Shown piece by piece: positions 8,810 to 56,807 of a DNA stretch of 60,806 bases. This DNA is from a virus. Its lineage: Duplodnaviria; Caudoviricetes. Under the pieces are notes generated by a model. It searched no databases. It saw nothing but the letters and a program-made list of their open reading frames with translations, and was not told where the DNA came from. The number at the start of each line of letters is the position of its first letter. Position 1 is the stretch's first letter. The translations under genes and the position numbers were made by a program. Where the stretch lies: positions 1 through 60,806 of IMG/VR virus record IMGVR_UViG_3300042894_001153. The stretch is one strand, 5' to 3'.

Positions 8810-10401
8810 TCTGCTGAGTAGGTTCTTGCCATTGTGATAATGGCGTTGGTTGATAATATCGTTACTGCCACAGATACTGCGTTCTGAAGCGCACTTTTAG
8901 TTACCTTTAACGGGTCTATTACACCAAGCTCATACATATCTCCCCACACGTTGTTCTTCACATCAAGACCGTAGCTGTAATTCATATTAGCCATAACGAT
9001 ATCCTTTAATCCTGCGTTTCTCAAGATTTGATTCATCGGTGATGCTAATGCCTCGGCAAGTATCTTATCTGCAATAGATTGCTCACTTGTGTTTTTAGAT
9101 AGTATCTTAATAGCTTCTTTAAACAATGCAACTCCACCACCTGGGAGTATACCCTCCTCAAGTGCAGACCTCACAGCACAAACTGCATCATCCACTCTAT
9201 CGTAAAGCTCCTTCTGCTCTAAGTCTGTATTTCCACCTACGTAGATTACACCTACTCCACCTGATAAAGATGCAATCCTTGACAAAATAAATTCCTTATC
9301 AGCTTTCTTCTTAGAAATCCTGTGTGCAGACCATAACTGATTTACACGCTCTGTAATGGCTTCATTATTCTTTATGGACTTATCCCTTACCACGATGGTA
9401 GAATCCTTCTCTACGATGACTTTCTGTGCGTGTCCGAGGTCGTCTACGGTCATTATGCTAAGGTCGTCTCCTGTCTTCTCTGAGAAGTAGGTTGCTCCAA
9501 CCGTTAGTGCAATGTCCTGCATCAGCTCGTGCTGCTTGTAACCGAAGTTCGGTGGCTGTATCGCACATATCTTCAATCCGTTCTTCATCACGTTGGCAGC
9601 CAACGTATTTATCACGTTCTGAGAACACGGTGCTATAATAAGCAACTTCTTACCCTCGTTTATAATTGGTTTAAGTACGTTCTCAATGGTAAGTAAATTA
9701 TTTATCTCTGCATCACTCACAAGTACGTACGTGTCTTCAAAGACACAATCGTCCTTCTCGTGGTCTGTGACAAACAGGTTTGACATATACCCTCTGTCTA
9801 TCTTTAATCCATTGGTGGTCTCGTAGTACGTCTCAGAGGTCTGTGAGTTCGCTATCGTTACAATACCGTTCTTGCCAACTTTCTTGTACACGTCACTTAT
9901 GGTCTTACCCAAAGCTACGTCGTTGTTCGCTGAGATAATCGCAACATTCGCTAAGGTCGCATTTGATACCTTCCTTGAGTTTGCCTTTAGGCTATCAACC
10001 ACACCATTAGTTACAGTTACCATATCCCTTAACACTTGAGTCTTGTTCACACCATCAACGATGTACTTAAAGCCTGCTTTTACCAAGGCCTCGGTCAATA
10101 CTATCGCAGTGGTCGTGCCATCGCCTGCCGATGTCGCAGTCCTGTCTGCTGCCTCCTTCATCATCCTTACAGCCAAGTTTTCAATTGGGTCTAATAACTC
10201 AATCGACCTCGCAACAGTTACACCATCCTTAGTAACAGTAATTCCGTGTGTGTGATGTGGTGACTCTATTAGCACGGTCTGTCCACTTGGGCCAAGAGTT
10301 GACTTTACAGCCTTTGAGATTGTCTCTATACCCTTGAATAACTTTTCTCTTCCTTCCTCATCGAACTTGATGTCCTTTGGTGAGTATCCTAAATTTGACA
10401 T
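8806..10401 (-). CDS. groEL: Chaperonin GroEL
   Basis: TLGPSG, TKDGVTVA, GDGTTT, GGGVAL, VIDPLKV motifs; no GGM tail. Confidence 0.97.
   Translation of the reverse strand: MSNLGYSPKDIKFDEEGREKLFKGIETISKAVKSTLGPSGQTVLIESPHHTHGITVTKDGVTVARSIELLDPIENLAVRMMKEAADRTATSAGDGTTTAIVLTEALVKAGFKYIVDGVNKTQVLRDMVTVTNGVVDSLKANSRKVSNATLANVAIISANNDVALGKTISDVYKKVGKNGIVTIANSQTSETYYETTNGLKIDRGYMSNLFVTDHEKDDCVFEDTYVLVSDAEINNLLTIENVLKPIINEGKKLLIIAPCSQNVINTLAANVMKNGLKICAIQPPNFGYKQHELMQDIALTVGATYFSEKTGDDLSIMTVDDLGHAQKVIVEKDSTIVVRDKSIKNNEAITERVNQLWSAHRISKKKADKEFILSRIASLSGGVGVIYVGGNTDLEQKELYDRVDDAVCAVRSALEEGILPGGGVALFKEAIKILSKNTSEQSIADKILAEALASPMNQILRNAGLKDIVMANMNYSYGLDVKNNVWGDMYELGVIDPLKVTKSALQNAVSVAVTILSTNAIITMARTYSAE
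9731..9746. repeat. Palindrome copy 1 GTGTCTTCAAAGACAC (inside groEL)
   Basis: Read directly. Confidence 0.95.
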
Positions 10402-10480
10402 ATGATTGAATTATAATTAGGCAAAGATACAAACCTTTTCATATTATAAAAAAGAAAAAAGCTAAATGTCAGAATGCAGT

Positions 10481-10725: not shown

Positions 10726-10761
10726 AAGAAAACATAAAATATAACCCAATTCAAAAATCGT

Positions 10762-10944: not shown

Positions 10945-11093
10945 TTAACAAAGGTAATACTTTTTTTCAGATAATCATAGTGTTTGGATACCCCATAGCG
11001 CTGTGGAAGCCGACCCGATTTGGAAAGTCATTTTATTTTTAGGGGTGGGGGTGCTGATTACCTTGCCCCTTGTCTGATTTTTTGGCTTTTTGC

Positions 11094-11170
11094 TACACGT
11101 GTGCGTGTGTGTACGTGTGTGTGTACGTGTGTATGTGTGTGCGTTATGCGTGTGTGTGTGCGTGTGCGCA
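11094..11170. repeat. Alternating purine-pyrimidine (GT-rich) tract
   Basis: 51 bp plus 26 bp of perfect RY alternation with one phase slip at 11144/11145. Confidence 0.9.
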
Positions 11171-11473
11171 GTTCCTTTTGCTTGCTGTATGGTGTGTGTC
11201 CTTGTCTATTTACTGAGAGACAATATTTTTTATTCAATTGTATTGCATTCTATTTGTGCTGTAATTTTTACCTGATGCATTACCAGTATGCGCATATTTT
11301 CTTGTAACTGATTGATTCTCATTCAAAATGTCGGTTTTATTACCTATTTGCGCTGTCTTAATTATTCGCTCACGTGTTTACTCACTTTGCGCTGTCTTAT
11401 TTGACATAATTTTTAATACTTTTTTCTCTCCTTTGCCGATTTTAAGAATATTTGCACCAAAAATTTATACTTT

Positions 11474-11489
11474 GTGTCCTTGAAGACAC
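11474..11489. repeat. Palindrome copy 2 GTGTCCTTGAAGACAC (non-coding junction)
   Basis: Read directly. Confidence 0.95.
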
Positions 11490-12424: not shown

Positions 12425-12440
12425 GTGTCTTCAAGGACAC
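12425..12440. repeat. Palindrome copy 3 GTGTCTTCAAGGACAC
   Basis: Read directly; 5 bp after the stop codon. Confidence 0.95.
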
Positions 12441-12449
12441 AAACCAAAC

Positions 12450-12496
12450 AGCAGAGTATGGTATCCAAGGATGTTCGATTCGTCCTCTCTGCTCCA
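12450..12496 (+). ncRNA. tRNA minihelix-like element 1 (acceptor stem + T-arm + CCA, no anticodon arm)
   Basis: GCAGAG/CTCTGC, AGGATG-TTCGATT-CGTCCT, then T-CCA. Confidence 0.65.
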
Positions 12497-12517
12497 CAAA
12501 AAATCAAAAAAAATCAT

Positions 12518-13417
12518 ATGGCAACAAAAACCAAAAAAATCGAAGAGTTAGTTTACACTACGGATGGCAATTCAGAAAGAGGCGAAGTACAGCACTATCA
12601 TCGTAAACCACACCCGAGGGAACTGCAAATTGGTGCAAAGCACACCGACATAGCACAGCTAAAGCCAAACCAAAAGCAAAACCTAATCAAGTTTGCCAAT
12701 GGGGACTACAGCTCAAAGTTCACCATCGGTTTTGAGGTCGAGAAAAACAGCCTATCAAGGGGCGCAGTCAAAGAGTATCCATTGTTTTGTGGATTCGAGC
12801 GTGATGGTAGCTGTGGTTACGAGGCAGTGACGAACATTTTGCCTTTGCTTCCATCGGGTAAATGGAGAAACAAAGTTTTCTCAATGATGGTAGATGCAAA
12901 GCGCATCATCGAAGACCAATACAGCCCATCTGATAGGAGATGTGGAGGTCATTGCACCATAGCTGTGGAGGGGATGGATGGTAGAGAGATAATGGAGATG
13001 GTAAGAAAGAATTGTGGTGTTATATGGGCAATGTTCAGAAATAGACTAAGCAATAGTTACTGCTCTCATAACCAAAGACTCATTACGGATTATGACCATA
13101 CACGTGATGGTAGCAGATACCATACAGCCTTAATCAAAGGCAATTGCTTAGAGTTTAGGCTTATTGCAAGGTTTCAATCGGTTAAACAAATGATGCGTAG
13201 GTATGAATTGTTTTATGAATTGGTAAACTTTAGTGTAAACAAGCCAAACGGAAAGTTCAAGGAGTTTTTGAAGATAGTAAAACCAATTGTACTATCTATG
13301 TATGAGGGTGATGTGGCAAAGACTGAAGAGATAATGACCTTATCGGTTAAGATGCAAGATTACATCAACGATGGTACTAACTGCGACGAAATCAGAGAGT
13401 TCGTGAGAGGTTGGTAG
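12518..13417 (+). CDS. Putative amidoligase (COOH-NH2 ligase, Amidoligase_2-like)
   Basis: TIGFEVE, ERDGS, YEAVT, RCGGH, RY, LEFR motifs; likely start MATKTKK. Confidence 0.8.
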   Translation: MATKTKKIEELVYTTDGNSERGEVQHYHRKPHPRELQIGAKHTDIAQLKPNQKQNLIKFANGDYSSKFTIGFEVEKNSLSRGAVKEYPLFCGFERDGSCGYEAVTNILPLLPSGKWRNKVFSMMVDAKRIIEDQYSPSDRRCGGHCTIAVEGMDGREIMEMVRKNCGVIWAMFRNRLSNSYCSHNQRLITDYDHTRDGSRYHTALIKGNCLEFRLIARFQSVKQMMRRYELFYELVNFSVNKPNGKFKEFLKIVKPIVLSMYEGDVAKTEEIMTLSVKMQDYINDGTNCDEIREFVRGW

Positions 13418-13432
13418 TGTCTTCAAAGACAC
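13417..13432. repeat. Palindrome copy 4 GTGTCTTCAAAGACAC (overlaps TAG stop)
   Basis: Read directly. Confidence 0.95.
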
Positions 13433-13433
13433 A

Positions 13434-13482
13434 AGCAAGGTTTGGAAGTTAATGTTGGGTTCGAGTCCCTTCCCTTGCTCTA
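13434..13482 (+). ncRNA. tRNA minihelix-like element 2
   Basis: GCAAGG/CCTTGC, GGG-TTCGAGT-CCC, then T-CTA; same geometry as element 1. Confidence 0.55.
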
Positions 13483-13816: not shown

Positions 13817-13969
13817 ATGAGAACTATCATCTTTACTTTAGCATCTTTCGTCGGTCTTTGGATGGTCTTCCAAGGCTTAGCGCATCAAAACGGACTAATG
13901 ATTATGGGCGCATTGCTTGTATTCTTTTCATCCTTACTTTTACTTTGGGCAGAAACAAAAAACAAATGA
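13817..13969 (+). CDS. Small two-TM membrane protein
   Basis: Hand translation MRTIIFTLASFVGLWMVFQGLAHQNGLMIMGALLVFFSSLLLLWAETKNK; ATGA coupling to the next gene. Confidence 0.65.
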   Translation: MRTIIFTLASFVGLWMVFQGLAHQNGLMIMGALLVFFSSLLLLWAETKNK

Positions 13970-14340
13970 ACAATAAAAACATCAAGTTCTTTGAGATTGA
14001 GTACAATTACAAAGACAATCCGACAGCAGAAAAAAGGACAGCACTTGTAACCGATGCCGAGTACAGCAAGAAAGTATTTATGGACATCGATGATGAAATC
14101 TTCCACTACGATATGGACGAGGACTACCTGAAGGTATTGGTCGAGTTAGGTGGCAGTACGTTTAACGATTTCATAGTCTACAGCTACAAAGCAATCGAGA
14201 GTGTCCTTGAAGACACAAAGGAAGATAGAATGTACACCGAGATAGAGATGCGATTAGCATTTACGATGGGTAGTCTTCATCAAGTGACGGGAGTTAGTTC
14301 TATCGAGGAGGTATTAGAGAAATTAAATAAAAATATATGA
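13966..14340 (+). CDS. Hypothetical early protein (modular; palindrome internal)
   Basis: Likely start MNNKNIK; C-terminal RMYTEIEMRLAF module follows SVLEDT. Confidence 0.65.
   Translation: MNNKNIKFFEIEYNYKDNPTAEKRTALVTDAEYSKKVFMDIDDEIFHYDMDEDYLKVLVELGGSTFNDFIVYSYKAIESVLEDTKEDRMYTEIEMRLAFTMGSLHQVTGVSSIEEVLEKLNKNI
14201..14216. repeat. Palindrome copy 5 GTGTCCTTGAAGACAC
   Basis: Read directly. Confidence 0.95.
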
Positions 14341-14952: not shown

Positions 14953-15182
14953 GCGATGAACAATTGTACGACATAATGTGCATCGACGAGGATGGCTATG
15001 AAATAGCGCACCAAAGAGAGATGTCATACCTGAATGCCCACAAAGAAAAGAATCGCCTTGAGAGTCTGTATCCCAATATTGTATACTACCTATCGTTGTC
15101 AGTGTTAGAGGAAGAGGAGGAAGAGAGGCATTATAACGAACGTGCTGTAGATGGGTGGGAGGATATGTTCCCTGAGTATTAG
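14949..15182 (+). CDS. Hypothetical acidic protein
   Basis: 77-aa ORF, ATGA coupling. Confidence 0.65.
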   Translation: MSDEQLYDIMCIDEDGYEIAHQREMSYLNAHKEKNRLESLYPNIVYYLSLSVLEEEEEERHYNERAVDGWEDMFPEY

Positions 15183-15197
15183 TGTCTTTAAAGACAC
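15182..15197. repeat. Palindrome copy 6 GTGTCTTTAAAGACAC (overlaps TAG stop)
   Basis: Read directly; perfect palindrome. Confidence 0.95.
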
Positions 15198-15284
15198 AAA
15201 ATTGTAGGATAGAGTATACATTAGGTGCAAAAATCAGGCTTAATGTATGCTTTATCATACGTCAAAAAAATAAATAAAAATAAA

Positions 15285-15316
15285 TTTGGATAGTATATAT
15301 AATTGTACTATCTTTG
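15285..15316 (+). promoter_or_regulatory. Bacteroidota sigma-A promoter
   Basis: TTTG-N20-TATCTTTG; near-identical context at 19149-19180. Confidence 0.85.
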
Positions 15317-15340
15317 TACCTTAATTAAACGAAATATAAT

Positions 15341-16426
15341 ATGTGCTTAATAATAATCAAACAAAAATCAAAAGAAGTATCAGCAGATGTACTAAAGTCT
15401 GCATCAAAAATCAACAGAGATGGGTTGGGTGTGGTGTGGTTGGATACCTACGAGGTAAGCTACCACAAGTCTAAGGAGTATGAGATTCTGAATACGGATA
15501 GACCATACATTGCACACTTCAGGTATGCGACGGTTGGTAAGGTCTGCATAGAAAATACTCATCCGTTTGTGTGTGGTAAGAACGAGAACGAATTGCTTAT
15601 GATGAACGGAACGATACGTGGCTTGGGTGATGCGAACAAGACAGACAGTAAGGTTCTTGCAGAGTCACTTGGAGATATCGATAGGGGAGCGTGGAGAGGT
15701 GAGTTAGCTAAGCATCCTTGTAGGTTCGTGACCATCAACAAAAAGACGAAGTCATTCGAGATATTCAATAAGCATCTATACACCCAAAAGAATGGTGTGT
15801 GGTACTCTAAAGACGAGGTGCTTGAGGATAACTATATGGCTGTGTACGGCACACTAAAGAAGGGTAACGGGAACTATTGGTCTTACTTGTATGGTTCAAC
15901 ACACGTTGGCAAGGGCAAGACAAAGGATTTGTATCCATTGCTAATCGAGGGGCTTCCGTATCTAATCAATGAGAAGGGAGTTGGTCATAACGTATCGGTA
16001 GATGTGTTCAAGGTGACTGACAGCGTACTAAAGAAAATAGATGCGTTAGAGGGGCATCCGAATTGGTATAGAAGGGAGCAGATACCAATTGTAGTTGGCA
16101 AGAAGGAGGTTATGTGTTGGGTATACTTTAACCCAAGGGAGTTGCGTTCTGATTCAGTTATGCATAAGTCATTCGAGTGGAGCGCACCACCAAAGAAGAT
16201 TGCGCATCAGCTACCATTGATACCAATTTCAAAGGATAAGAGTTTATTGGACGAGTGTACTCAGTACACGTATTGGGAGGACAAGTGGGATGATTTTGAC
16301 AGCATCAAGACACACAGTCCCGTATGCATTGGTTGTTACGGAGACGTGATAAACGATAACTTTGGTAACTACTACTGTAACAAGTGCGATAGTTGGTACT
16401 CAGAGAGCGAGGTGATTAAGTTTTAG
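15341..16426 (+). CDS. Class II glutamine amidotransferase fused to a gamma-glutamylcyclotransferase (AIG2-like) domain and a C-terminal Zn ribbon
   Basis: N-terminal Cys (MCLII), NRDGLG, AHFRYATVG, NTHPF, MMNG, TDS; VYGTLKKG..N and IDALEGHP.WY.R; CIGC...CNKC. Confidence 0.88.
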   Translation: MCLIIIKQKSKEVSADVLKSASKINRDGLGVVWLDTYEVSYHKSKEYEILNTDRPYIAHFRYATVGKVCIENTHPFVCGKNENELLMMNGTIRGLGDANKTDSKVLAESLGDIDRGAWRGELAKHPCRFVTINKKTKSFEIFNKHLYTQKNGVWYSKDEVLEDNYMAVYGTLKKGNGNYWSYLYGSTHVGKGKTKDLYPLLIEGLPYLINEKGVGHNVSVDVFKVTDSVLKKIDALEGHPNWYRREQIPIVVGKKEVMCWVYFNPRELRSDSVMHKSFEWSAPPKKIAHQLPLIPISKDKSLLDECTQYTYWEDKWDDFDSIKTHSPVCIGCYGDVINDNFGNYYCNKCDSWYSESEVIKF

Positions 16427-16441
16427 TGTCTTTAAAGACAC
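16426..16441. repeat. Palindrome copy 7 GTGTCTTTAAAGACAC (overlaps TAG stop)
   Basis: Read directly. Confidence 0.95.
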
Positions 16442-18065: not shown

Positions 18066-18345
18066 AAGTGTCCTTGAAGACACAAAGCAAACTGCACTAC
18101 AGCAATTGATAGAGAAGCTAAAGATGGACATCGATTACTACGATTCATTATTAAGCCAAGAGGACTACAAGGCTTACCACAAAGGTCTTATTGCTAAAAA
18201 AACACAAGCACATAGCACATTAGACGATGCAGAGAGTCTATTGGGAATAGAGAAAGAGCAGATAGAAAATGCTTATAGAGATGGTAGAATAGAAGCAAAT
18301 ATTCCCAAAGAATTTAATGTAAAAGGAGAACATTATCATAAATAA
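18049..18345 (+). CDS. KQTA...EKEQI family protein with the palindrome encoded at its N-terminus
   Basis: KQTALQQL and EKEQIENAY motifs shared with 25358-25618. Confidence 0.7.
   Translation: MTSKNKSVLEDTKQTALQQLIEKLKMDIDYYDSLLSQEDYKAYHKGLIAKKTQAHSTLDDAESLLGIEKEQIENAYRDGRIEANIPKEFNVKGEHYHK
18068..18083. repeat. Palindrome copy 8 GTGTCCTTGAAGACAC
   Basis: Read directly. Confidence 0.95.
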
Positions 18346-19109: not shown

Positions 19110-19125
19110 GTGTCTTCGAAGACAC
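19110..19125. repeat. Palindrome copy 9 GTGTCTTCGAAGACAC (perfect)
   Basis: Read directly; 23 bp upstream of the promoter -33 box. Confidence 0.95.
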
Positions 19126-19148
19126 AACAAAAAATACTTAAAAATAAA

Positions 19149-19180
19149 TTTGGATAGTTAATTCTATTATACTATCTTTG
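19149..19180 (+). promoter_or_regulatory. Bacteroidota sigma-A promoter
   Basis: TTTG-N20-TATCTTTG. Confidence 0.85.
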
Positions 19181-19207
19181 TACTTTAATTAAACAAAATA
19201 TAATCAA

Positions 19208-22357: not shown

Positions 22358-22373
22358 GTGTCCTTAAAGACAC
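22358..22373. repeat. Palindrome copy 10 GTGTCCTTAAAGACAC
   Basis: Read directly; follows TAA-TAG. Confidence 0.95.
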
Positions 22374-25618: not shown

Positions 25619-27072
25619 AAGATGTTATAGCACATAGATTCGGTTATACAAACAAGATGATGTACGAGCATTGTCTTGTTCTGTATAACGTACTAAACCA
25701 ATCAATGGAGATTAAGGAAGGTAGAGGCAAGGCAGTTATAACAAAGAGAAAGTTTAAGTACAATAATTCAGATGATGATAGAGAGTTAGTGGAGAACAGT
25801 TTAAGACATTATAAATACAAAATGGAAAACGAAAAAGTAGAGTTCAGAGGCTATCAAAAAGATATCATAGCTAAAGGAATTGAAAAGCTAAAGCAGTACG
25901 GCTTTCTGTACTTGGCTATGGAGGTAAGAACGGGTAAGACACTTACGAGTCTTGGCATTGCAGATGGTATGGGTTGCAGAAATGTTTTGTTCATAACAAA
26001 GAAAAAAGCAATCAGCAGCATCGAGTCTGACTACGATATGCTAAACCCTGCATTTAAAATAGTTGTAATAAACTATGAGTCACTGCATACAATAAAAGCC
26101 TTTGACTTTGATATGATAGTTTGCGATGAAGCCCATAGTATGGGAGCTTTCCCAAAGCCAAGCGAGAGAGCCAAGTTGGTGAAGGAGTTTATTGCTAAGA
26201 ATAAAAACCCTTATGTAATTCTCTTGTCGGGTACGCCAACACCTGAGTCCTACAGTCAGATGTACCATCAGGTCTATGGCATTAAGGGAAACCCATTCAG
26301 TCAGCACAAGAACTTCTATAGATTCTGTGACGAGTACGTTTCCATTAAAGAGCGAATGATTAATAGCTTACTGATTAAGGACTACTCAGGTGGTTCTCAG
26401 AAGATACTGAACGTGATGATGCCGTACACCATAAACTACACTCAGAAGGAGGCAGGCTTTAAGGTTGAGACAAGAGAGCATATCATCAAGGTTAAGATGT
26501 CTGATATGACCTATAGCTTGACCTCTAAACTTAAAAGAGACCTTGTAATCCAGGGAAAGGATGATGTAATACTTGCAGACACACCCGTTAAGCTTATGAT
26601 GAAACTGCATCAGCTGTACTCAGGGACTATAAAGTTTGAGTCAGGCAAGTCAATGATAATGGATTTATCAAAGGCAAAGGCCATATACGATAACTTCTGC
26701 GTGGCTAAGATTGGTATATTCTACAAGTTCAAGGAGGAGCTAAATGCATTGATGCAGGTCTATGGCCCTGAAAATCTAACCACTGACCTTGGTGTCTTTG
26801 AAGACACAGATAAGTCAATCGCTCTTCAGATTGTATCGGGTAGAGAAGGTATCTCGCTCAAGAAGGCTGAGGCGTTGGTGTACTACAACATAGACTTTAG
26901 TGCCACGTCCTATTGGCAGTCCAAGGATAGGATGACCACTAAGGATAGACTTGAGAACGATGTGTATTGGATATTTGCTGAGAATGGTATAGAGGAGAGC
27001 ATATACAAGGCTGTCTCGGATAAAAAAGATTATACCATAAACCATTTCAGAAAAGATTTACTAAATTCGTAG
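25615..27072 (+). CDS. SF2 (SNF2-like) helicase
   Basis: YQ, EVRTGKT, DEAH, SGTP, REGISL, QSKDR. Confidence 0.9.
   Translation: MKDVIAHRFGYTNKMMYEHCLVLYNVLNQSMEIKEGRGKAVITKRKFKYNNSDDDRELVENSLRHYKYKMENEKVEFRGYQKDIIAKGIEKLKQYGFLYLAMEVRTGKTLTSLGIADGMGCRNVLFITKKKAISSIESDYDMLNPAFKIVVINYESLHTIKAFDFDMIVCDEAHSMGAFPKPSERAKLVKEFIAKNKNPYVILLSGTPTPESYSQMYHQVYGIKGNPFSQHKNFYRFCDEYVSIKERMINSLLIKDYSGGSQKILNVMMPYTINYTQKEAGFKVETREHIIKVKMSDMTYSLTSKLKRDLVIQGKDDVILADTPVKLMMKLHQLYSGTIKFESGKSMIMDLSKAKAIYDNFCVAKIGIFYKFKEELNALMQVYGPENLTTDLGVFEDTDKSIALQIVSGREGISLKKAEALVYYNIDFSATSYWQSKDRMTTKDRLENDVYWIFAENGIEESIYKAVSDKKDYTINHFRKDLLNS
26792..26807. repeat. Palindrome copy 11 GTGTCTTTGAAGACAC (inside the helicase)
   Basis: Read directly. 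Confidence 0.95.
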
Positions 27073-32400: not shown

Positions 32401-35400
32401 TCATTAACTCAAGCTCATCCTCAGTAATGTCTTCCTTTATTAGCATCTCTTTTAATGTATCAGCATAATTCAGGCTTCCATCGTCGTTATAGACTTTGTT
32501 CTTTGTTGCGTTAAACCTATCTGCTAATTCCATTGCTGCAGACTCCTCATCTCTTATCGCATTCAATACATCATCTGACATATTAATCATATCAGATAAA
32601 GGTGGCAATGATAAAACTGCTTTCCTTTGGCTAAAAGTATTTACTAACGATATATACTTATCTAACACACTCATTGGTATTAGAGATGGATTGATTGAGA
32701 ATAATTTTTGAAGTTTTGGTGCAAGGATATCAGATATGCCAATCTTAGTACCTACGTTTGCTAAAGCATTTTTCCTTTTTGTATTTGCATTAGCCATCTT
32801 ATTAGCGTAATCAGCATCGTTAAACACCTTAGACATATAGTCAATGAACCTCTCCACGCTCGCAGGGTTGAACATATTAACCTTACTAAACTTAGATAGT
32901 ACATCTGACATCTGAGATGCAGTAATCTTACCTTTCTTTTCTAATTCGCTTACCTCTTCTGCTAATTGCTTGCTCGCATTAGCCCAAGCCTGCTTAGCTG
33001 TCTTAGCACCCTCTTCAAAATCCTTAAGCCTCTTGTATAAAAGCTCCTTCTCAGACATTGTAATGTTTTTGATATCCTTTATGATACCAATTAACCTACC
33101 TGCAGATGGTGCTGACTTCTCTTTCAGACCCATCATCTTACGGGCATCACGCACTAACTTCTCTCTCTGTACATCTGTAGCGTTCTCGTACGCCTTAGAA
33201 CCCATAATGTACTCAATTACATTCTTAGCTATTTGCTCATCTGTTCTGCCTCTTCCCTTTGACTTCTTGATGATACCATCAACCTCAGTCATTAATCTAT
33301 CGTATCCATCAAGCAATGTCTCTGAAATCTCTGTTCTAACCGATGCTTTACCTTTTGCTTTTTCAAGACCACTTACTATATCTTCATTAGATACGCCACC
33401 TCTTCTTAATGTTATTTTTATCGCAGCCTCAGAGATGCCCTGCGCCCTTGCATCCTTTATAAATTTAACTACGTTGCTGTCTTCTGCTAATTGGGCTTTA
33501 GATTTTACTTCAGAACCAAGTTTTCTTATGATACCTGTTTCTGCAGCAATAATTTTAATTTTCTGAGCAGCACTTAATTTGCCTCTTGTTTTTTCTTTGC
33601 CTGTTTTTGCATCAATGAATTTATACCCTTCTTTGTATTTTTCTTTTACAGAGTTAGGCATAATCTCCCAAGAATCCACTTTCTTATCAGGGACTCCTAT
33701 AACTTCACCCCCAATAGCAAATTCATATGTAGAGTGATTTGCCTTTCCTGCTAATCCTGTTGGCTTACCAACGAGCATAATGTCATTCTGAGAAAAATTA
33801 TTCTCTTTATAGAAACCATCCCTTAGTTCATTGTAATCGATAAACGCATTAAACGACTCCAATAGTTCTTTTAATGAACCTTTTAGAGTTGTTTTTAAAT
33901 CTCCAATATTACTTATTGCCAATAAGAATGGCTTTCTGCTTGAACTGTCTGCAAGCTCCTTGAATGAGTTTACTTTATTTAGAGCTTCTTTTAGTGTTTT
34001 TAATTCTACGGTTTCTTTAGGGAAATTATTTATAGCCTCTTTAAATGAATTAAAATCAGATGTTTTATTGATTCTTTCTTCTAATAAATTTATAACTCTT
34101 TTATTAAATAGCTTCGCTTTATCAGGAGAACCACTAATGAAGAATATATAATCTGATTCATTGATGTTATTGGCTAAAGTTTTTTCGGCCAATCCACTTG
34201 CCCATAGAATTTTTTTACTTCTATTTTCAGGGTCTAACGCAAAACTTGGCCCTGCATCTAAGTAATGCTCTCCTTGAATAACTTCATCGTAATAGCTTCC
34301 TCTTCCTAATTGGTCTGCCATCCAAAACCATACTTTTTGTTTTTTTGCAATGATATCATCGATTAATGCTTCGATGTCAATCTTGTCTGCATTTGTAACA
34401 AATGATAATGGTAATGGTTCTTCAGGGAAACTTAGCTTACTATACTTCTGAGCTTTATTTGTAACAACCGTAGGACTTCCAATAGGAACTGATAATCCTT
34501 GCTGTATTGCCTCAATATCTGCAGGATTAACGGCTTCTCCTTTTCTAATTGAAGAAGAGATATTACTAAAGAACTCAATCGCTTGCTTTGTGTCTTTAGT
34601 ATTTTGGAAAGGTTTAAACTTACCATTTGTGACATTGGACACAAATTCGTTAATAATAGATGCTATTTTCTGAATAGTGGATGGAGATAAACTTCCTTCT
34701 TGCTGTTCTAACGCAGCCGTTAGCTCTGCAAGATACTCCTCGTATGAATCAATCTCGGAATATTTATTAGCAAAATCCATTAGTTTCTGATTTGAGCTAT
34801 CAGATAAGACAGATGAAAGCCTATTCCTGAATGTCTTGAAGGTCTCAGGATTTTCGCCAAATGTCTTTAGCATAATACCGTGAGCAACCTCGTGAGCTAC
34901 TGTCCTATTATTTGCTTTATTTAGATTGATGTCAATTCTTCCAACATATGACCCATCCTCATTTTTGCTATATGAGAAATTACCGACTGACTCAGCGTTT
35001 CCATCTATACCACTCATAGCAGCGCCATAGCTATCGTCACTATCGTGTACTATAATATCGAAATTCGGTAAAACTGATTTTAATGTTGTTAGAACTTTTT
35101 GAGCAGAATCTATAATAGATAGTTTTTGCTTATCCCCTATAGTTTCCCTAACTTGGTCTAATGCAGATTTATTTGTTACAGATGTCCCTGTCTGTGTCTT
35201 TGAAGACACAGTTTCTTGTGTACTCTCTTCTGTTTGAACTTGCTCCTGAGTCTCAGTAGGGAATGTCCCTTGCCATATATCTTGCGCTTTCTTATTATCT
35301 TCAGCAAATAGATTAATGGCAGACTGCCTGTCTCCATTAGCCTGCTCTAAGAATGATAGTTGGTCTTCTTCGTCTAATTGGTCAAACTCTTCTTCTGTAG

Positions 35401-49487: not shown

Positions 49488-49521
49488 AAAAAAGGAAGTG
49501 TGTCTTCAAAGACACACCTCC
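49488..49521 (-). terminator. Capsid-gene terminator containing palindrome copy 13 (49500-49515)
   Basis: Minus strand GGAGGTGTGTC-TTTGAA-GACACACTTCC-TTTTTT. Confidence 0.85.
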
Positions 49522-52128: not shown

Positions 52129-54564
52129 CTATCTTGGGTTAAATTGTGCTAAGTCAAATCCATCTAAGCTATCTTCATTAGACTCAAATGTCATCGGTGG
52201 TAAATTATTCTTTCTTTGGTTTATCAACTTTGACTGCTGAGTGTTCTGAAGTGCTATTCTTTCTGACTTGGCTTTTTCTTTTTCTGTCTCTCTTGCCTGA
52301 AGCGAGGTCACGTCCATACCCTTGATTTGCATATTAAGATTAAACTCTTGCTGCATCAATTGAGACTTCAACTGAGCCTCTATCTTCATCTTCTCTATCT
52401 CGAATGAAATCTCAGCCTGCTTTAATTGCATCTTGCCCTGTATCTCTGCCTGCTGCTTTTGCATAGACATCTCAGCGGCCATCTGTTGTGACTGCATTTG
52501 AGTCTGAGATTGCATAGCCTGTGATTGCATTGCCATCTTTTCTTCTCTGTCCTGCTTAGACTTCCGCTTAAGCTTTAGTAACTGATTCGCTACCTTTATG
52601 TTCTTAATCTCTCTAATGTCTATTGCGTCCTCAAGATTAATATCCCCCTTAGATAAAGCCACTTGAATATTCTGCTCAAGCTGTGCCTTTTGCTCCTCGT
52701 CAGGTGATACCTCAATAAAGATACCAAAGTCATATATGTAAAGGTCTTTAATGCTGTTCAGTATATTTACGTTGTACTTGCCAATTTGGTTTGTAAACTC
52801 ATCTTTAAAGTCAGCGTACTCAAGTATATCAGATACCCTATAGGTTAAAGCCTCTGCCAATGTTCTGTATATGTACAAGCTACTCTCAAGGATATGCCTT
52901 GTAGCTGTATTTGAATTTAATGCGGCTAACTTCTGTACACCAACCAATGCATTAGGGTCAGGCATACTTCCGTCCCTTGCCTCATTCAATCCTGTAACCT
53001 GCCTAATCTGACTTAGGTAGTGGTTATAATTTGACAGTAGCATCTGTGTCTTTGACGCTCCTGAGTTTGATGTTAACTGCGTGATTGGAACTCTTGCATT
53101 ATTAAAGTCTCCATCCTGAGTGAAGCTTCTTCCAATAACACTACCCGTTTGGAAGTATAGTCTTAACGCATCTTCAGGGTTGTACGCTGCACCTGTTCCC
53201 AAGTCAACCTCGTTCAATCCATCGGCATCTATAAATACACCGTCAGGGACTACCTTAGATATTACCTGCTGTAACTTTAGGTGGGTTATTTGAATCAAGT
53301 CAGCAAAAGGAATCATCCTTCTTGTTAGTGACTCAATAACTCCCTTGTACATTCTTGGCGCACAGGCTACGTAGTTTGGCATTGCGTGCTGAGTAGCTGA
53401 CTTTGGTCTAACCATATTCTCAGCAAGTTCCCACTTGATTATGAAATTTGTTCCCATAACCATAACACCCTCATACCATACATCGATAGTTTTTGATACC
53501 TTCTCAAAGTTTCCTTCATCCATCATCTCTTGAGGTGGGTTGAACGTATCATCCTTCTCAATCATCTTAATGTTCCCTGTGTCTGATGTCTTCTTTTTGT
53601 AAACTATATCCTTTGTTGTCTTATAATTAAAGTACAATAAAGTGGTGGTATCCTTAAAAAATATGTCATTACTATAAAACTGTGCTACGTTGTAGTAGTC
53701 CCACCAACTCTGACTGTAATTTGAAATCTCTTCCAAGTCAGCATTAGTTAATGTTGGGTCAATCTTTTTTAGTTCAATAATTGGAACGGTCTTTATCTCA
53801 CCCCAATAGAAGCAATCCTTAAAGAATGGGTCTTCTGTATAGCTATAAATAACATTTGCAGGGTCTACATAAGATATCCTAACTCCATCTCCCTTTAGGA
53901 ACTCGTGTTTTGCAATACCTATTCCTATAACCGTTTGGTCATAATCAACTCTTTTACGAATGTCATCGTAGTGGTTTGCCTCAAATATTGTATTAATAGC
54001 TGTCTCCTCTGCTATCTCAATAGCAGGCTTATAGTTAAGTTGCATATATAAAGACAATTCCTCATCTGTATTTGGCAACTCTTCAGGGTCTGTAACAAAT
54101 GGATTAGCACCTGTCTTATCCATAATTGTTTGAAGGATTGGCTTTGCCACCATCTGCCCCTCAATCATATCTTGGTAAGCACTTCTATGCTCCTGAGACA
54201 TCGCATCCTGTGCGTACGCTTTAACCTTAAATAGTCTATCAGACATACCGTTAACAACGATATCGATAAACTTAGGTATAATTGGAACAGGTGTCCAATC
54301 TAAATTTAGGTAAGATAAGTCACCATCTATAGACAGCTCGTTCTTATACTTTGCAACGGACTGCTCGCCTCTTGCATACAATCGTAATCTATTAAAATCT
54401 TTCCATTGACTGTAAAATCTGCAACCACTACTATCCTTCTTGAACCACTCGTACTGAATGGCTTGGCCTATTTGTAGTCCGAATTCCTCCGAAGCCTTTT
54501 CATTGTCAGAGACAAATTGACTTGGGAATCCTGCAGACGTGATATTTATTTTTACATCTTTCAT
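52129..54564 (-). CDS. Portal protein
   Basis: 811 aa; LRLYARGEQ, LNLDWTPVPIIPKF, TGLNEARDG; Gln-rich C-terminal barrel helix. Confidence 0.85.
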   Translation of the reverse strand: MKDVKINITSAGFPSQFVSDNEKASEEFGLQIGQAIQYEWFKKDSSGCRFYSQWKDFNRLRLYARGEQSVAKYKNELSIDGDLSYLNLDWTPVPIIPKFIDIVVNGMSDRLFKVKAYAQDAMSQEHRSAYQDMIEGQMVAKPILQTIMDKTGANPFVTDPEELPNTDEELSLYMQLNYKPAIEIAEETAINTIFEANHYDDIRKRVDYDQTVIGIGIAKHEFLKGDGVRISYVDPANVIYSYTEDPFFKDCFYWGEIKTVPIIELKKIDPTLTNADLEEISNYSQSWWDYYNVAQFYSNDIFFKDTTTLLYFNYKTTKDIVYKKKTSDTGNIKMIEKDDTFNPPQEMMDEGNFEKVSKTIDVWYEGVMVMGTNFIIKWELAENMVRPKSATQHAMPNYVACAPRMYKGVIESLTRRMIPFADLIQITHLKLQQVISKVVPDGVFIDADGLNEVDLGTGAAYNPEDALRLYFQTGSVIGRSFTQDGDFNNARVPITQLTSNSGASKTQMLLSNYNHYLSQIRQVTGLNEARDGSMPDPNALVGVQKLAALNSNTATRHILESSLYIYRTLAEALTYRVSDILEYADFKDEFTNQIGKYNVNILNSIKDLYIYDFGIFIEVSPDEEQKAQLEQNIQVALSKGDINLEDAIDIREIKNIKVANQLLKLKRKSKQDREEKMAMQSQAMQSQTQMQSQQMAAEMSMQKQQAEIQGKMQLKQAEISFEIEKMKIEAQLKSQLMQQEFNLNMQIKGMDVTSLQARETEKEKAKSERIALQNTQQSKLINQRKNNLPPMTFESNEDSLDGFDLAQFNPR

Positions 54565-56807
54565 CTAATTATTTCACTTATTGTACCTGTATTACTGTAT
54601 TTTGCAAAGTTAATCTTTATTTTCGATTCTTTTTTTTCAGCTAAGTACAGATGTTTTTGAGTCGCCATAATAGCAAGCCCTGAGCTTATCGAGGCATCGT
54701 GCTTTGTTCTATCCGAAATATCAAACTTAGCCCAATCCTCTAACGTCCTTATAAAAATCATATCACCCATATCACCTGCCTCCCTATAACTTCCATCCAT
54801 ATCCATCCCAACGTACTTCTCTATGTAAGACTCAATAGCAGAGGCGTGAGCTTGCTTAATATCTTCACTTGAGTTAGGTATGCCACCAAGCTCTCTTTCG
54901 GTCTTAGAGAGGTTCGTATAGGTCTTGTCAGGCCTATTCATACAGAACCCCCTGTACCCTCTATTCTTGAAGTGGTATAATAACCTTGGTTTGTTGTTCT
55001 CTATTAGGATTGGCATACCGTAAAATACGCAGGCCATTAGAACCTCCTCGTAGAATATCTCTGCTGTCTGTGGTCTTGCTATGTACTCCAAAAAAAATGT
55101 ATTCACAGGTGCTTCATCCATATGGTATCCTGTTAGACCGTGCAGTGAACCATTAGAACCACCACCACCAACTACGCCCGATATGTCATAGCTATCGCAA
55201 CCAAACGCCCCTAAGTGGTCATTAAGTGGATACTTAACTCCGTTCTTTATCATAAACCTATTCTGCATCTGTGGTCTTGGATTCCACGAGATTAAAAATC
55301 TTCCATTATTATTCGGTGAGAACACAACCGTTGTGTCCTTTATCCCATCCTTCCAAGAGAACGAACCCCTTGTCATATGATGCTCCTTTATTAAAGTATC
55401 GTTGTAATCAATCTGCTGATATATCTTAGTCAGGTTAAACAAAGACATCTTGCTCTCATCCCTGAATGCGTGCGACTCCGTTCTTGGGTACTGCCTGTAA
55501 AACTCATTCAATGCATCTGCATCGTTCTTTAGAGCCTCTACCTCATTATCCCAATAAGTTATCGCCCCCTGGGATATCATCTCTCCATTAATACCTTCAA
55601 TCGGTTCTTCAGGTGCATAGAATACAGGCATACCATACCTATCAATGAAGCCCTCCATATTATGCTCCATTGGTATAAACAAAGAGTACATACCACTCTT
55701 GGTCTGACCGTTTGCACTTCTTTTATTTATATCAGAGTCCTCGTATAGCTTCTTAAAGTTATCTCCACCCTTGGCCAATGCATTTGAGGTTGAACCCATC
55801 ATACACTTTCCAATAACCCTACTACCCAATCTTAAGCAGGTCTTTGTTACCCTCCAATTATTTAAAATATTATTTGGCTTAATCCATTTGCCCGATTCGT
55901 CGTGAACCAATAGCCTTAGCTTCTCTCCATCGTAGGAGTTATCGTCCGTATTCTTCCAATCTATGCTCGTATCCAATCCATCGATATCATCGTTGGATAT
56001 GTTATACATATTTTTCTTTGTAATCTTTGCAGCAGGAACTCTAAATGCCAATTCAGTCTTAGGCTTATCCATACCATCCTGTACGGGCTTGAAGAAAAAT
56101 GGAAGCCTGTTATAGATTGGAACAACCTTGTCGGTGAACATCTTCTTGGCATCAGCACCTGTCTTGGATAGTATTCCAATCCTTGCATCCTTTGCTAACG
56201 TGCCAATATTATTGCACTCCGATGAGGACATATACGAAAATCCCGACCTCCTTATCTTGAGGTACGTCATTCCAAATGACCTTGGGTCAGCCTTGCAAGC
56301 CTCCCAAAAAATGTATAGTACTCTATTCGCTTCCCTAAAGTCAGGGTATCCTATGTCAATCGATGACCACTGAAGGTACATATAGTGTGAACCCGTAACG
56401 TACGTTGGTACTCCATTGTTCATAAACCAACACCCATTCTCCCTGTAATCAAACTCAGCCTCTATGTAGTCAACCCACAAGTCCTTAAACTCAGTTGGCA
56501 TATCGTTCCACTGAAATATGGTCTGTATCTTTTCTAATGGCTTTGGTATATCTGCTCTCTCCCAATACTGTTGCTTAGGATTTTTGTGTCTTTGAAGACA
56601 CTCTTTTGGAGCTAATGGCAAGGCTATTTTTAATCCTTGTATAGATATAACATCTCCAATCTCTCCTGTCTTTGATATAACTATGATATCATACTTTTGG
56701 TCGTACCCGTACGCCCACGTCTTAGCCTTATTCTTTACCAACATAGCGTTGGCAGGAATTAAATCTGTTACTACTGAGTATAAGCTATTTTGACCTTCTT
56801 TCTGCAA
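54561..56807 (-). CDS. terL: Terminase large subunit
   Basis: KIRRSGFS (deviant Walker A), LLVHDESGKW, GSTSN, GCDSYD, HDASISS; start uncertain (TTG 56807 or GTG 56837). Confidence 0.9.
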   Translation of the reverse strand: MQKEGQNSLYSVVTDLIPANAMLVKNKAKTWAYGYDQKYDIIVISKTGEIGDVISIQGLKIALPLAPKECLQRHKNPKQQYWERADIPKPLEKIQTIFQWNDMPTEFKDLWVDYIEAEFDYRENGCWFMNNGVPTYVTGSHYMYLQWSSIDIGYPDFREANRVLYIFWEACKADPRSFGMTYLKIRRSGFSYMSSSECNNIGTLAKDARIGILSKTGADAKKMFTDKVVPIYNRLPFFFKPVQDGMDKPKTELAFRVPAAKITKKNMYNISNDDIDGLDTSIDWKNTDDNSYDGEKLRLLVHDESGKWIKPNNILNNWRVTKTCLRLGSRVIGKCMMGSTSNALAKGGDNFKKLYEDSDINKRSANGQTKSGMYSLFIPMEHNMEGFIDRYGMPVFYAPEEPIEGINGEMISQGAITYWDNEVEALKNDADALNEFYRQYPRTESHAFRDESKMSLFNLTKIYQQIDYNDTLIKEHHMTRGSFSWKDGIKDTTVVFSPNNNGRFLISWNPRPQMQNRFMIKNGVKYPLNDHLGAFGCDSYDISGVVGGGGSNGSLHGLTGYHMDEAPVNTFFLEYIARPQTAEIFYEEVLMACVFYGMPILIENNKPRLLYHFKNRGYRGFCMNRPDKTYTNLSKTERELGGIPNSSEDIKQAHASAIESYIEKYVGMDMDGSYREAGDMGDMIFIRTLEDWAKFDISDRTKHDASISSGLAIMATQKHLYLAEKKESKIKINFAKYSNTGTISEIIR
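56586..56601. repeat. Palindrome copy 14 GTGTCTTTGAAGACAC (inside terL)
   Basis: Read directly. Confidence 0.95.

What the first reader, a model, noticed from the sequence alone, without database searches (positions are those of the whole stretch)
9731..56601. Genome-wide 16-bp palindrome GTGTCYTYRARGACAC (14 copies) concentrated near the early-region start
Seen: copies start at 9731, 11474, 12425, 13417, 14201, 15182, 16426, 18068, 19110, 22358, 26792, 35194, 49500 and 56586. The arms GTGTC/GACAC are invariant, the 6-bp core always fits YTYRAR, and 13 of 14 are followed by A. Assuming about 35% GC, a rough estimate gives well under one chance copy of GTGTC-N6-GACAC in 60 kb. Ten copies lie in 9.7-22.4 kb around the presumed leading end and only four in the rest. 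Most are not at promoters, so this is not an ordinary operator set. Inference: it is the binding site of a dimeric protein acting on the whole genome, like parS, matS or NBS. Possible roles are genome organisation, DNA entry, anti-defence marking or recombination. It matches neither parS (TGTTTCACGTGAAACA) nor matS (GTGACRNYGTCAC), and I do not recognise it.
Basis: partly seen in the sequence, partly recalled or inferred. Interest (0 to 1): 0.92.

Follow-up and report, generated by a model that had tools for sequence, protein, structure and literature searches.

The report
Phage gene-boundary hairpin palindrome, lineage-specific
A lake-water phage of Bacteroidota carries 14 identical copies of a 16-base palindrome, mostly placed right after the stop codons of its early genes, and its relatives carry their own versions of it, so it looks like a genome-specific punctuation hairpin between genes rather than a chromosome-organising protein site.

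Summary
The window is a complete 60.8-kb phage genome with 14 exact copies of GTGTC-N6-GACAC, against 0.03 expected. No degenerate copies exist.

The copies are not scattered:
- 8 of 14 lie in the 8.9% non-coding DNA.
- 6 abut the stop codon of an early + strand gene.

About a third of the relatives' loci carry lineage-specific 16-mers of the same build. Arms include GTGTCG, GTCTCT, GTCTAG, GTGCAC and GGCGCG, with a 4-base centre.

In relatives the 16-mer tops longer, variable stems that fold better on the sense strand. It is followed by a U-tract, a type III hammerhead or a tRNA-like element.

Best reading (0.45): a transcribed intercistronic hairpin, like REP elements or T4 PeSLs, that marks the 3' ends of cistrons.

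The variable positions are two-fold symmetric, and copies have been written into coding sequence. No partner protein was found, and no RNA data could be laid.

The parts
9731..9746 (.). Motif copy GTGTCTTCAAAGACAC inside the chaperonin (Cpn60) ORF 8806-10401 (-)
   Evidence: It encodes C-V-F-E-D-T. The closest relative keeps the copy (L089), while most relatives have C-I-L-E-D-V with other codons.
11474..11489 (.). Motif copy in the 1.4-kb divergent non-coding region, overlapping a TTTG of a weak promoter-like stretch
12425..12440 (+). Motif copy 5 nt after the stop of ORF 11790-12419 and 17 nt before the ATG of ORF 12458-13417
13417..13432 (+). Motif copy whose first G is the last base of the TAG stop of ORF 12458-13417; followed by a tRNA-like element
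13433..13482 (+). tRNA-like element: an acceptor-like stem (AGCAAGG/CCTTGCT) enclosing a T-arm-like hairpin GGG-TTCGAGT-CCC. It is not called a tRNA.
   Evidence: 3 of 6 T-arm pairs show double changes in 8 sequences. ARAGORN found no tRNA and Rfam gave no hit. The acceptor-like stem was read by eye.
14201..14216 (+). Motif copy in frame inside ORF 13966-14340 (S-V-L-E-D-T)
   Evidence: orthologous copy in L089.
15182..15197 (+). Motif copy overlapping the TAG stop of ORF 14949-15182; a host-type promoter lies about 90 nt downstream
15285..15316 (+). Bacteroidota-type promoter TTTG-N20-TAtcTTTG upstream of ORF 15341-16426 (GATase/GGACT)
   Evidence: The consensus TTTG / TAnnTTTG is recalled knowledge.
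16426..16441 (+). Motif copy overlapping the TAG stop of ORF 15341-16426
18068..18083 (+). Motif copy 2 nt after the stop of ORF 17898-18065
   Evidence: Flagged terminator-like on the - strand only.
19110..19125 (+). Motif copy in an intergenic gap, about 25 nt upstream of a second copy of the host-type promoter
19149..19180 (+). Second, near-identical Bacteroidota-type promoter TTTG-N20-TAtcTTTG upstream of ORF 19208-19435
22358..22373 (+). Motif copy 2 nt after the stop of ORF 21618-22355 (PDDEXK nuclease); a homology block with relative L007 ends here
26792..26807 (+). Motif copy in frame in the SNF2-type helicase ORF 25615-27072 (G-V-F-E-D-T)
   Evidence: Motif-bearing relatives encode S-V-F-E-D-T here. 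The one GTCTC-type relative that has a copy in this slot (L023) encodes S-L-F-E-E-T; the other GTCTC-type relative (L067) has none there. Motif-free relatives encode E-E-F-N-S-T.
35194..35209 (.). Motif copy inside the 2540-aa virion-protein ORF 29441-37063 (-)
49488..49521 (-). Intrinsic terminator after the 481-aa capsid-module gene. On the - strand it reads GGAGGT-[motif 49500-49515]-ACTTCC followed by TTTTTT.
   Evidence: -19.5 kcal/mol on the - strand, -15.9 on +; z = -4.9.
56586..56601 (.). Motif copy inside the large-terminase ORF 54561-56837 (-), encoding E-C-L-Q-R-H
   Evidence: Kept in L089, L090 and L093; the other relatives have different residues there.

Best explanation
The 16-mer is the conserved tip of a transcribed intercistronic hairpin: a 5-6-bp stem with a 4-6-nt loop, U-Y-R-A in this phage. 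It punctuates operons transcribed by the host RNA polymerase, above all the early + strand block. It sits 0-5 nt after a stop codon and marks the 3' end of the upstream cistron. After termination or processing, the hairpin is left at or near the 3' end of that RNA. There it can block 3' exonucleases and insulate the next gene's A-rich leader. In kind it resembles bacterial REP elements and the stem-loop part of T4 PeSLs. What is shown: placement, family-wide conservation of the build, variable outer stems, sense-strand bias and the downstream neighbours. What is inferred: that the RNA form is the active one, that it sets or protects 3' ends, and that its strict uniformity within a genome comes from an unidentified sequence-specific reader or from copy homogenisation.
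For: (1) Placement. Eight of 14 copies lie in the 8.9% non-coding DNA, and 6 abut stop codons of early + ORFs. In MW202828.1, 14 copies of GTGTCGTTAACGACAC all lie in the + strand early block. Several start 4 nt after an annotated stop and 32-39 nt before the next ATG.

(2) Stems change, the build stays. Arms seen include GTGTCY, GTGTCG, GTCTCT, GTCTCG, GTCTAG, GTGCAC, GGCGCG and GTGTGT. Both arms always change together, and the centre is mostly YYRR.

(3) Outer stems. In relatives, 31% (of 94) and 38% (of 72) of GTGTC-type sites fold with flank-shuffle z < -2. Flank pairing is 3.56 against 3.04 in controls.

(4) Sense-strand preference. Among sites chosen symmetrically for extended stems, the sense fold is better in 32 and the antisense fold in 13 (P = 3e-4).

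(5) One orthologous slot, three 3'-end makers. Downstream of the GATase and the 319-aa genes, relatives have hairpin plus U-tract (L012, L013, L020), hairpin plus type III hammerhead, or hairpin plus tRNA-like element (L024-L026, window, L023). Rfam RF00008 hits start 3 nt after the motif in L035 and L031 (E = 1e-6 to 2e-5). Of 228 sites, 26 have CTGAYGA within 60 nt downstream.

(6) In relatives a host-type promoter lies upstream of the hairpin in the GATase 5' leader, so the hairpin is transcribed.

(7) Window copy 49500 is the tip of a canonical terminator on the coding strand after the capsid-module gene.
Against: In the window itself, 12 of 14 copies have no outer stem (z > -2). The bare hairpin is weak, -4.5 to -5.6 kcal/mol. 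The early copies are followed by A-runs, not U-runs.

Positions 6 and 11 do not behave as an RNA pair. In 117 early sites I counted from the list: T-A 74, C-G 13, C-A 20 and T-G 10. Mismatches that would be wobbles on the antisense strand are therefore commoner than sense wobbles.

The arms are strictly invariant: 190 exact copies against 14 one-mismatch copies, with 11 in the control. Structure alone does not explain this.

Intragenic copies were created by codon changes in the SNF2 gene (two positions in two clades), GroEL and TerL. A 3'-end hairpin has no obvious use there.

The statistics count related genomes as if independent. No RNA data could be examined.
Confidence: 0.45

Rival explanations
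1. The 16-mer is a double-stranded DNA site for a two-fold symmetric (dimeric) phage or host protein. This could be a regulator that shuts off or road-blocks early transcription at many intergenic sites, working like mycobacteriophage stoperators or the dispersed P1 C1 operators. It could also be a decoy that titrates a host factor. The hairpin tips of existing intergenic stems would simply be the places where a palindrome is tolerated.
For: The degenerate consensus is itself palindromic. Y at positions 6 and 8 is mirrored by R at 11 and 9, and the two halves vary independently (CA, TG, TA and CG centres all occur; C-A commoner than C-G in the window). The arms are all-or-none. Lineage-specific half-sites resemble repressor/operator co-evolution. 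Copies have been written into coding DNA at conserved places by changing residues. Copy 11474 overlaps a promoter-like TTTG in the divergent control region.
Against: No gene family tracks motif presence. The best candidates (209-aa, 319-aa, 361-aa and 114-aa ORFs) are absent from motif-bearing L096, L099, L135 and L146, and present in motif-free L094, L107, L122 and L138. The 152-aa ORF, whose counterpart in MW202828.1 is annotated 'repressor protein', has relatives at 74 loci, most of them without a repeated palindrome. AF2 models of the 209-aa and 114-aa proteins match no DNA-binding fold. A duplex site does not explain the outer variable stems with sense-strand preference. Half-sites as different as GTCTAG, GTGCAC and GGCGCG occur among close relatives while the unread centre stays YYRR. 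Closely related phages have 8 copies against 0 (L067 and L073).
Confidence: 0.25
2. The copies are a self-homogenising or selfish hairpin repeat. They would act as a linker for cassette exchange by the phage's own recombination system (Sak annealing protein plus PDDEXK nuclease), as proposed for PeSLs. Alternatively they are an invading repetitive hairpin element like those of mitochondrial genomes. Uniformity within a genome would then come from copying, not from a reader.
For: Distribution on the primase tree is patchy: sister pairs with and without the motif, and different motif families in neighbouring clades. Copy number ranges from 2-3 to 21. Tandem duplicated cassettes each carry hairpin plus leader (L035 3333 and 3751). 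Two homology blocks between the window and L007 begin or end at a copy (19103/19110 and 22376/22373). The phage encodes Sak and a PDDEXK nuclease. In-frame coding copies of equal length would fit short-patch conversion.
Against: Other block boundaries fall at gene ends that have no motif, so the coincidence is not specific. Sixteen bases is short for homologous exchange. No transposase or recombinase was found among the 38 ORFs scanned in Pfam. Decayed copies, expected for a neutral repeat, are absent. Late-gene copies are kept at orthologous places across the clade: the 7.1-kb TerL-to-capsid spacing recurs, and.
Confidence: 0.2
3. The hairpins are promoters read as extruded DNA hairpins by a virion-packaged RNA polymerase, as in phage N4. 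The giant late protein would be that polymerase.
For: Late-module gene order (terminase, portal, capsid, giant protein last) and a 2540-3859-aa virion protein recall N4-like phages; this comparison is from memory. Small hairpins precede many early genes.
Against: The giant protein gave no Pfam hit and no PDB sequence hit, and only an uncharacterised PHROG. It has no polymerase motifs in simple pattern searches and carries an HExxH-like stretch. Host-type promoters are present, and in relatives they lie upstream of the hairpin. Hammerhead stem III begins within 3 nt of the hairpin. Copies also follow late genes.
Confidence: 0.03

Closest known systems
PeSLs (promoter-early stem-loops) of T4-like phages (PMC2839356, passages read; PMC4122927, abstract read)
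   Same: Both are repeated, conserved intergenic cassettes between the stop codon of one small early ORF and the ATG of the next. Both contain a stem-loop that acts as terminator or attenuator. Both are concentrated in plastic early regions and are proposed to insulate cassettes and serve as exchange points.
   Different: PeSLs are composites of about 100 bp with a strong sigma-70 promoter and G/C-tract stems. Here only an exact 16-mer is conserved, and a host-type promoter follows just 2 of 14 copies. The sequence is lineage-specific with paired arm changes. Copies also occur in frame inside genes. The host is Bacteroidota and the phage is a podovirus.
REP (repetitive extragenic palindromic) elements of bacteria (function recalled; bioRxiv 10.64898/2026.03.23.713779 and PMC12306157 seen only as search listings)
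   Same: Both are many near-identical short palindromes just downstream of genes. They are transcribed into 3' UTR hairpins that affect mRNA decay and termination. The sequence is genome-specific.
   Different: REPs are chromosomal, number in the hundreds, are 20-40 nt imperfect palindromes and are linked to a RAYT transposase. No such gene was seen here; only 38 of about 74 ORFs were scanned.
Stoperators of cluster A mycobacteriophages (PMC9283540 and PMC6550527, abstract starts seen in a search listing; details recalled)
   Same: Both are tens of identical short sites spread through short intergenic gaps of a phage genome, with lineage-specific variants.
   Different: Stoperators are asymmetric 13-mers oriented with transcription and bound by a monomeric immunity repressor of a temperate phage. 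Here the site is palindromic, no repressor tracks it, and no integrase was seen among the ORFs scanned.
RNase III processing hairpins between T7 early genes (recalled, no call)
   Same: Both are intercistronic hairpins in an early polycistronic RNA, and processing leaves a protective hairpin at the 3' end of each mRNA.
   Different: T7 sites are stems of about 20 bp cut by host RNase III. Here the stems are 5-6 bp, and the cutting, where visible, is delegated to adjacent hammerheads, tRNA-like elements or U-tracts.
Repetitive hairpin-forming elements of mitochondrial genomes (PMC2800124, listing only)
   Same: Both are short hairpin repeats that appear patchily among relatives and fill intergenic DNA.
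   Different: The mitochondrial elements are treated as selfish invaders in organelle genomes. Here there is strict conservation of position and sequence, and a functional context.

Membership tests
Intrinsic (rho-independent) terminator | Stable hairpin followed by a U-tract on the transcribed strand | tested here: not met
   Met at 1 of 14 copies (49500, - strand: 6 extra pairs plus TTTTTT). The early copies are followed by A-runs on the sense strand. Copies 12425, 18068 and 19110 are flagged only on the antisense strand. Some relatives' copies do carry U-tracts (L012, L013, L020).
PeSL (T4-like phages) | Composite unit of about 100 bp: stem-loop plus host sigma-70-type early promoter | tested here: not met
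   Only the 16-mer is conserved. A host-type promoter follows 2 of 14 copies, at 15285 and 19149.
PeSL (T4-like phages) | Lies between the stop codon and the next ATG of small early ORFs | tested here: met
   Six of 34 early ORF ends have a copy within -2..+8 nt, and 8 of 14 copies are non-coding.
PeSL (T4-like phages) | Indel or replacement boundaries between close relatives fall in the element | tested here: inconclusive
   Two block ends coincide with copies, while others fall at motif-free gene ends.
REP elements | Multi-copy extragenic palindrome that forms a hairpin in the 3' UTR | tested here: met
REP elements | Cognate RAYT (Y1 transposase) gene | tested here: inconclusive
   No such Pfam hit in the 38 ORFs scanned; about half of the ORFs were not scanned.
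Stoperator / immunity repressor | Asymmetric site oriented with transcription | tested here: not met
   The site is palindromic. There is only a 2:1 bias of the central CA over TG on the sense strand (71 against 35).
Stoperator / immunity repressor | A repressor gene that co-varies with the site | tested here: not met
   No ORF family tracks presence. The 152-aa ORF, whose MW202828.1 counterpart is annotated as a repressor, is common in motif-free relatives.
parS/ParB, matS/MatP, NBS/Noc | Match to the known site, and presence of the binding protein | tested here: not met
No ParB-, MatP- or Noc-type Pfam hit in the 38 ORFs scanned. The host genome is not known.
N4-type hairpin promoter | Virion RNA polymerase that reads the hairpin | tested here: not met
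   Sequence-level searches only. No fold prediction of the giant protein was made.
Hammerhead ribozyme type III (neighbours of the motif in relatives, not in the window) | Rfam RF00008 score and conserved core CUGAUGA...GAAA...GUC | tested here: inconclusive
   Four hits of 40.5-44.7 bits (E = 1.4e-6 to 2.1e-5), below the gathering score of 48.5. The full core is present. There is no hit at gathering threshold and none in the window.

The most novel reading that the evidence does not exclude
The 16-mer is the operator of an unknown sequence-specific reader, a phage or host protein that recognises the hairpin tip or its duplex form. Each phage lineage would then carry its own 'punctuation code' that sets where early transcripts end or are released. 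Different codes (GTGTCT, GTCTAG, GTGCAC, GGCGCG and others) would define regulatory or recombinational compatibility groups among co-infecting Bacteroidota podophages.
Probability: 0.25. Interest if true: 0.8.

Novelty: new variant of a known kind. Interest (0 to 1): 0.6.

Why it matters
Gene expression in phages of Bacteroidota is poorly mapped. These hosts lack Shine-Dalgarno-led initiation and use unusual promoters. This phage family is large: 239 relatives were confirmed in one viral collection. It offers a natural experiment. The same intergenic slot is filled by a genome-specific hairpin combined with a U-tract, a hammerhead ribozyme or a tRNA-like element. If the hairpin marks RNA 3' ends, that gives hammerheads and tRNA-like elements a concrete job in phage operons, namely cutting next to a protective hairpin. 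It would also yield portable insulator parts for Bacteroidota. If the motif instead has a sequence-specific reader, the lineage-specific arm changes are a ready-made specificity series. Either way, the strict all-or-none conservation is a clean handle for experiments.

Tried and rejected
Phage RNA polymerase promoter. No polymerase was found in the early ORFs or in the giant protein. Host-type promoters are present. I rejected this as the main reading.

Partner protein by association.
- All-against-all clustering of 3,777 ORFs from 82 loci and eight sister-clade contrasts pointed to four ORFs: 209, 319, 361 and 114 aa.
- A second set of loci broke the link.
- By its conserved ExE/CGGH/EFR pattern the 319-aa protein looks like an enzyme. 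My reading of it as an amidoligase is recalled, not tested.
- The 361-aa protein is a GATase/GGACT fusion.
- AF2 models of the 209-aa protein (pLDDT 86.8) and the 114-aa protein (pLDDT 93.8) had no PDB fold match; the best E-values were 0.56 and 0.40.
- Profile searches of the PDB found nothing.

Host repeat. It showed single hits in unrelated taxa, roughly what I estimate chance would give. The one multi-copy contig (WTJX01000555.1, 56 kb, at least 5 copies) looks like a relative of this phage binned into a MAG. This is not evidence of absence from the host.

Cultured relatives. Flavobacterium phage elemoD has no enriched palindrome. Other cultured relatives (Maribacter phage Panino, Cellulophaga phi38:1) were not fetched.

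Known RNA families. There is no Rfam family at any copy in the window. The only hit was a chance mir-297 match on a GT-rich stretch.

Terminator scan of 10-29.5 kb. Motif copies are flagged only on the antisense strand.

RNA evidence. One metatranscriptome run holds 6% of the sampled words. Nothing could be laid, so no habitat or expression claim rests on it.

Literature. Five searches listed no paper on this motif in flavobacterial phages. In one search, none of the 10 papers listed (of 1,093 found) contained 'Flavobacterium phage'. This is a weak basis for saying it is unpublished. Supplements were not consulted.

Full report
**What the window is.** It is a whole virus record of 60,806 bases, rated 100% complete.
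- Its portal, terminase and capsid-module proteins relate it to Flavobacteriia podophages. Portal identity is 76% to the uncultured MW202828.1, 49% to Maribacter phage Panino, 45% to the Flavobacterium elemo phages and 35% to Cellulophaga phi38:1.
- Genes run rightward from 11.8 to 28.9 kb. This block holds small early ORFs, a Sak annealing protein, a PDDEXK nuclease, a primase-helicase, an SNF2-type helicase and a VRR-NUC nuclease.
- Genes run leftward elsewhere. That part holds the terminase, portal, capsid module, a 2540-aa virion protein and a chaperonin.
- DNA runs that hold the early block are labelled lake water.

Shuffles give 0.03.
- Relaxing the search to three mismatches adds nothing, although chance alone should add about two.
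- Thirteen of 14 copies are followed by A.
- Ten of 14 fall in 20.8% of the genome (P = 6.6e-5).

**Where the copies sit.**
- Eight of 14 lie in the 8.9% of the genome not covered by my ORF set (P = 7e-6).
- Six of 34 early ORFs have a copy starting between 2 nt before and 8 nt after the last base of their stop codon. Three of these copies share their first G with a TAG stop.
- Two copies (15182, 19110) are followed within about 25-90 nt by near-identical Bacteroidota-type promoters, TTTG-N20-TAtcTTTG. Those copies therefore close one transcription unit before the next one opens.
- Copy 49500 is the tip of a textbook terminator on the coding strand after the 481-aa capsid-module gene. It has six extra pairs and then six U; the fold is -19.5 kcal/mol with a flank-shuffle z of -4.9.
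- Five copies are inside ORFs: the chaperonin, a 124-aa ORF, SNF2, the giant protein and the terminase. A sixth (18068) falls inside ORF 18049-18345 only through an upstream ATG that may not be the real start.

**The family picture.**
- The primase-helicase finds 239 relatives, of which 80 loci were kept. A second query added 74 loci.
- MW202828.1 has 14 copies of GTGTCGTTAACGACAC, all in its early block. Several start 4 nt after an annotated stop.
- About a third of the loci carry an enriched palindrome, and nearly all share one build: six-base arms and four central bases.
- Arm families are GTGTCY, GTGTCG, GTCTCT, GTCTCG, GTCTAG, GTGCAC, GGCGCG and GTGTGT. The centres are mostly YYRR. Three lineages have other builds: CGTTTAAACG (up to 20 copies), GTCGT-N2-ACGAC and GTTCGGT-N-ACCGAAC.
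- Five complete GTGTC-type genomes hold 21, 18, 15, 8 and 15 copies, against 0 for the control pattern.
- Within that type the motif is all-or-none: 190 exact copies and 14 with one arm mismatch, against 11 in a reversed-sequence control.
- Presence is patchy on the primase tree. For example, L067 has 8 copies and its sister L073 has none. The cultured elemo phage has none.

**Evidence for a transcribed hairpin.**
- In relatives the 16-mer is often the apex of a longer stem whose outer pairs differ from site to site. Flank pairing is 3.56 against 3.04 (sd 0.09) in a mismatched-flank control. About a third of sites fold with z < -2 against shuffled flanks.
- When extended sites are chosen by a strand-symmetric criterion, the sense strand folds better: 32 against 13 at the strict cut, P = 3e-4. 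Related genomes are not independent, so this is indicative only.
- The same orthologous slot is filled in different ways (read by eye):
  - Upstream of the GATase gene, relatives have a promoter, then a hairpin with a conserved GAG/CTC base, then a CA-rich leader and the ATG. The apex is the genome's own 16-mer in motif-bearing phages and an unrelated stem-loop in others. The hairpin there is therefore transcribed.
  - Downstream of the GATase and 319-aa genes the hairpin is followed by one of three things: a U-tract (L012, L013, L020), a type III hammerhead (about ten loci), or a tRNA-like element (L024-L026, L023, the window).
- Rfam supports the hammerheads at E = 1.4e-6 to 2.1e-5, just under the gathering score. 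They begin 3 nt after the motif in L035 and L031.
- Of 228 sites, 26 have the CUGAYGA core within 60 nt downstream.
- The closest relative has three motif-plus-tRNA-like units, two of them in tandem within 200 nt. The T-arm of these elements shows compensatory changes.
- Termination, self-cleavage and presumed RNase P cleavage would all leave the hairpin at the 3' end of the upstream RNA. That convergence is the main reason for my preferred reading.

**Evidence that structure alone does not explain.**
- In the window most copies are bare and weak (-4.5 to -5.6 kcal/mol), yet invariant.
- The variable positions are two-fold symmetric and independent. Position 6/11 is T-A in 9 copies, C-A in 4, T-G in 1 and C-G in 0. 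Across 117 early sites, C-A (20) exceeds T-G (10) on the sense strand (my count).
- Coding copies were made by changing residues:
  - SNF2 reads E-E-F-N-S-T in motif-free relatives. It reads S-V-F-E-D-T in GTGTC-type genomes and S-L-F-E-E-T in L023, the one GTCTC-type genome that has a copy in this slot (L067 has none there).
  - A second clade created S-V-F-E-D-T 14 codons upstream.
  - The chaperonin and terminase copies are kept among the nearest relatives at variable protein positions.
  - The 7.1-kb terminase-to-capsid spacing recurs in three further genomes.
They also fit short-patch copy correction.

**The search for a reader failed.**
- No ORF family tracks the motif.
- The two best small candidates fold confidently but match nothing solved.
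- The 152-aa ORF, whose MW202828.1 counterpart is annotated as a repressor, is common in motif-free phages.

**Comparison with what is known.** The element works most like REP elements and like the stem-loop half of T4 PeSLs (PMC2839356 passages; PMC4122927 abstract). It fails the PeSL definition, because there is no conserved promoter composite. It also fails the stoperator definition, because the site is palindromic and no repressor tracks it. I file it as a new variant of a known kind: a lineage-specific, strictly uniform 16-nt boundary hairpin in Bacteroidota podophages.

**Odds.**

| Reading | Confidence |
|---|---|
| Transcribed boundary hairpin | 0.45 |
| Dimeric DNA-binding site | 0.25 |
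| Self-homogenising or exchange linker | 0.20 |
| Hairpin promoter | 0.03 |
| Something else | remainder |

The first three readings are not mutually exclusive.

Noticed in passing
L035:2398-2452, L031:2103-2157, L025:1136-1189 and 2175-2229 (relatives; none in the window): Type III hammerhead ribozymes on the coding strand between early genes. They start within a few nt of the motif hairpin. Rfam RF00008 scores are 40.5-44.7 bits, just under the gathering score.
   Followed up: partly
window 13433-13482; L089:14587-14640, 14691-14746, 15709-15763; L023:1640-1690; L024-L026: Recurrent tRNA-like elements right after motif copies: an acceptor-like stem enclosing a GGG-TTCGAGT-CCC T-arm. ARAGORN does not call them tRNAs and Rfam has no match. 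They may be RNase P substrates.
   Followed up: partly
window 15262-15340 and 19126-19207: Two near-identical copies of a Bacteroidota-type promoter cassette (AAATAAATTTGGATAGT...ACTATCTTTGTAC...TTAATTAAAC) in front of ORFs 15341 and 19208.
   Followed up: partly
window 11093-11170, 11197-11205, 11347-11360 and 11386-11399: The 1.4-kb divergent non-coding region holds a GT-rich low-complexity run, an isolated half-site-like GTGTCCTTG, and a direct repeat TTTGCGCTGTCTTA x2. It may be an origin or control region.
   Followed up: no
window 12458-13417 and 15341-16426: An early enzyme pair. One is a 319-aa protein with invariant ExE, CGGH and EFR motifs; it looks amidoligase-like to me, which is recalled and has no Pfam hit. 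The other is a class-II glutamine amidotransferase fused to a gamma-glutamyl cyclotransferase domain. In the contrasts each occurred only on the motif-bearing side in 6 of 8 pairs; in the second set of loci they are found together.
   Followed up: partly
window 29441-37063 (-): A 2540-aa virion protein with no Pfam family (PHROG 32588 only). It has Gly/Ala-rich and coiled-coil-like stretches and an HEVAHG stretch near residue 723 that looks like a metallopeptidase motif. Relatives reach 3757-3859 aa.
   Followed up: no
window 8806-10401 (-) and neighbouring ORF 8555-8809: A phage-encoded Cpn60-type chaperonin (Pfam E = 7e-58). MW202828.1 and the elemo phages annotate GroEL together with a GroES.
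   Followed up: no
L190 and L237 (WTJX01000555.1, 56,458 bases): A contig filed in a Cytophagales MAG carries at least 5 motif copies within about 8 kb. Its size matches a phage genome, so it is probably a relative of this phage binned with a possible host.
   Followed up: no
L059 and L065: One lineage uses CGTTTAAACG instead, with 19-20 copies in 12-22 kb. It often sits at the top of G/C-rich outer stems and is followed by a conserved TTAAnTAAAATTTATAnTATATG leader.
   Followed up: partly
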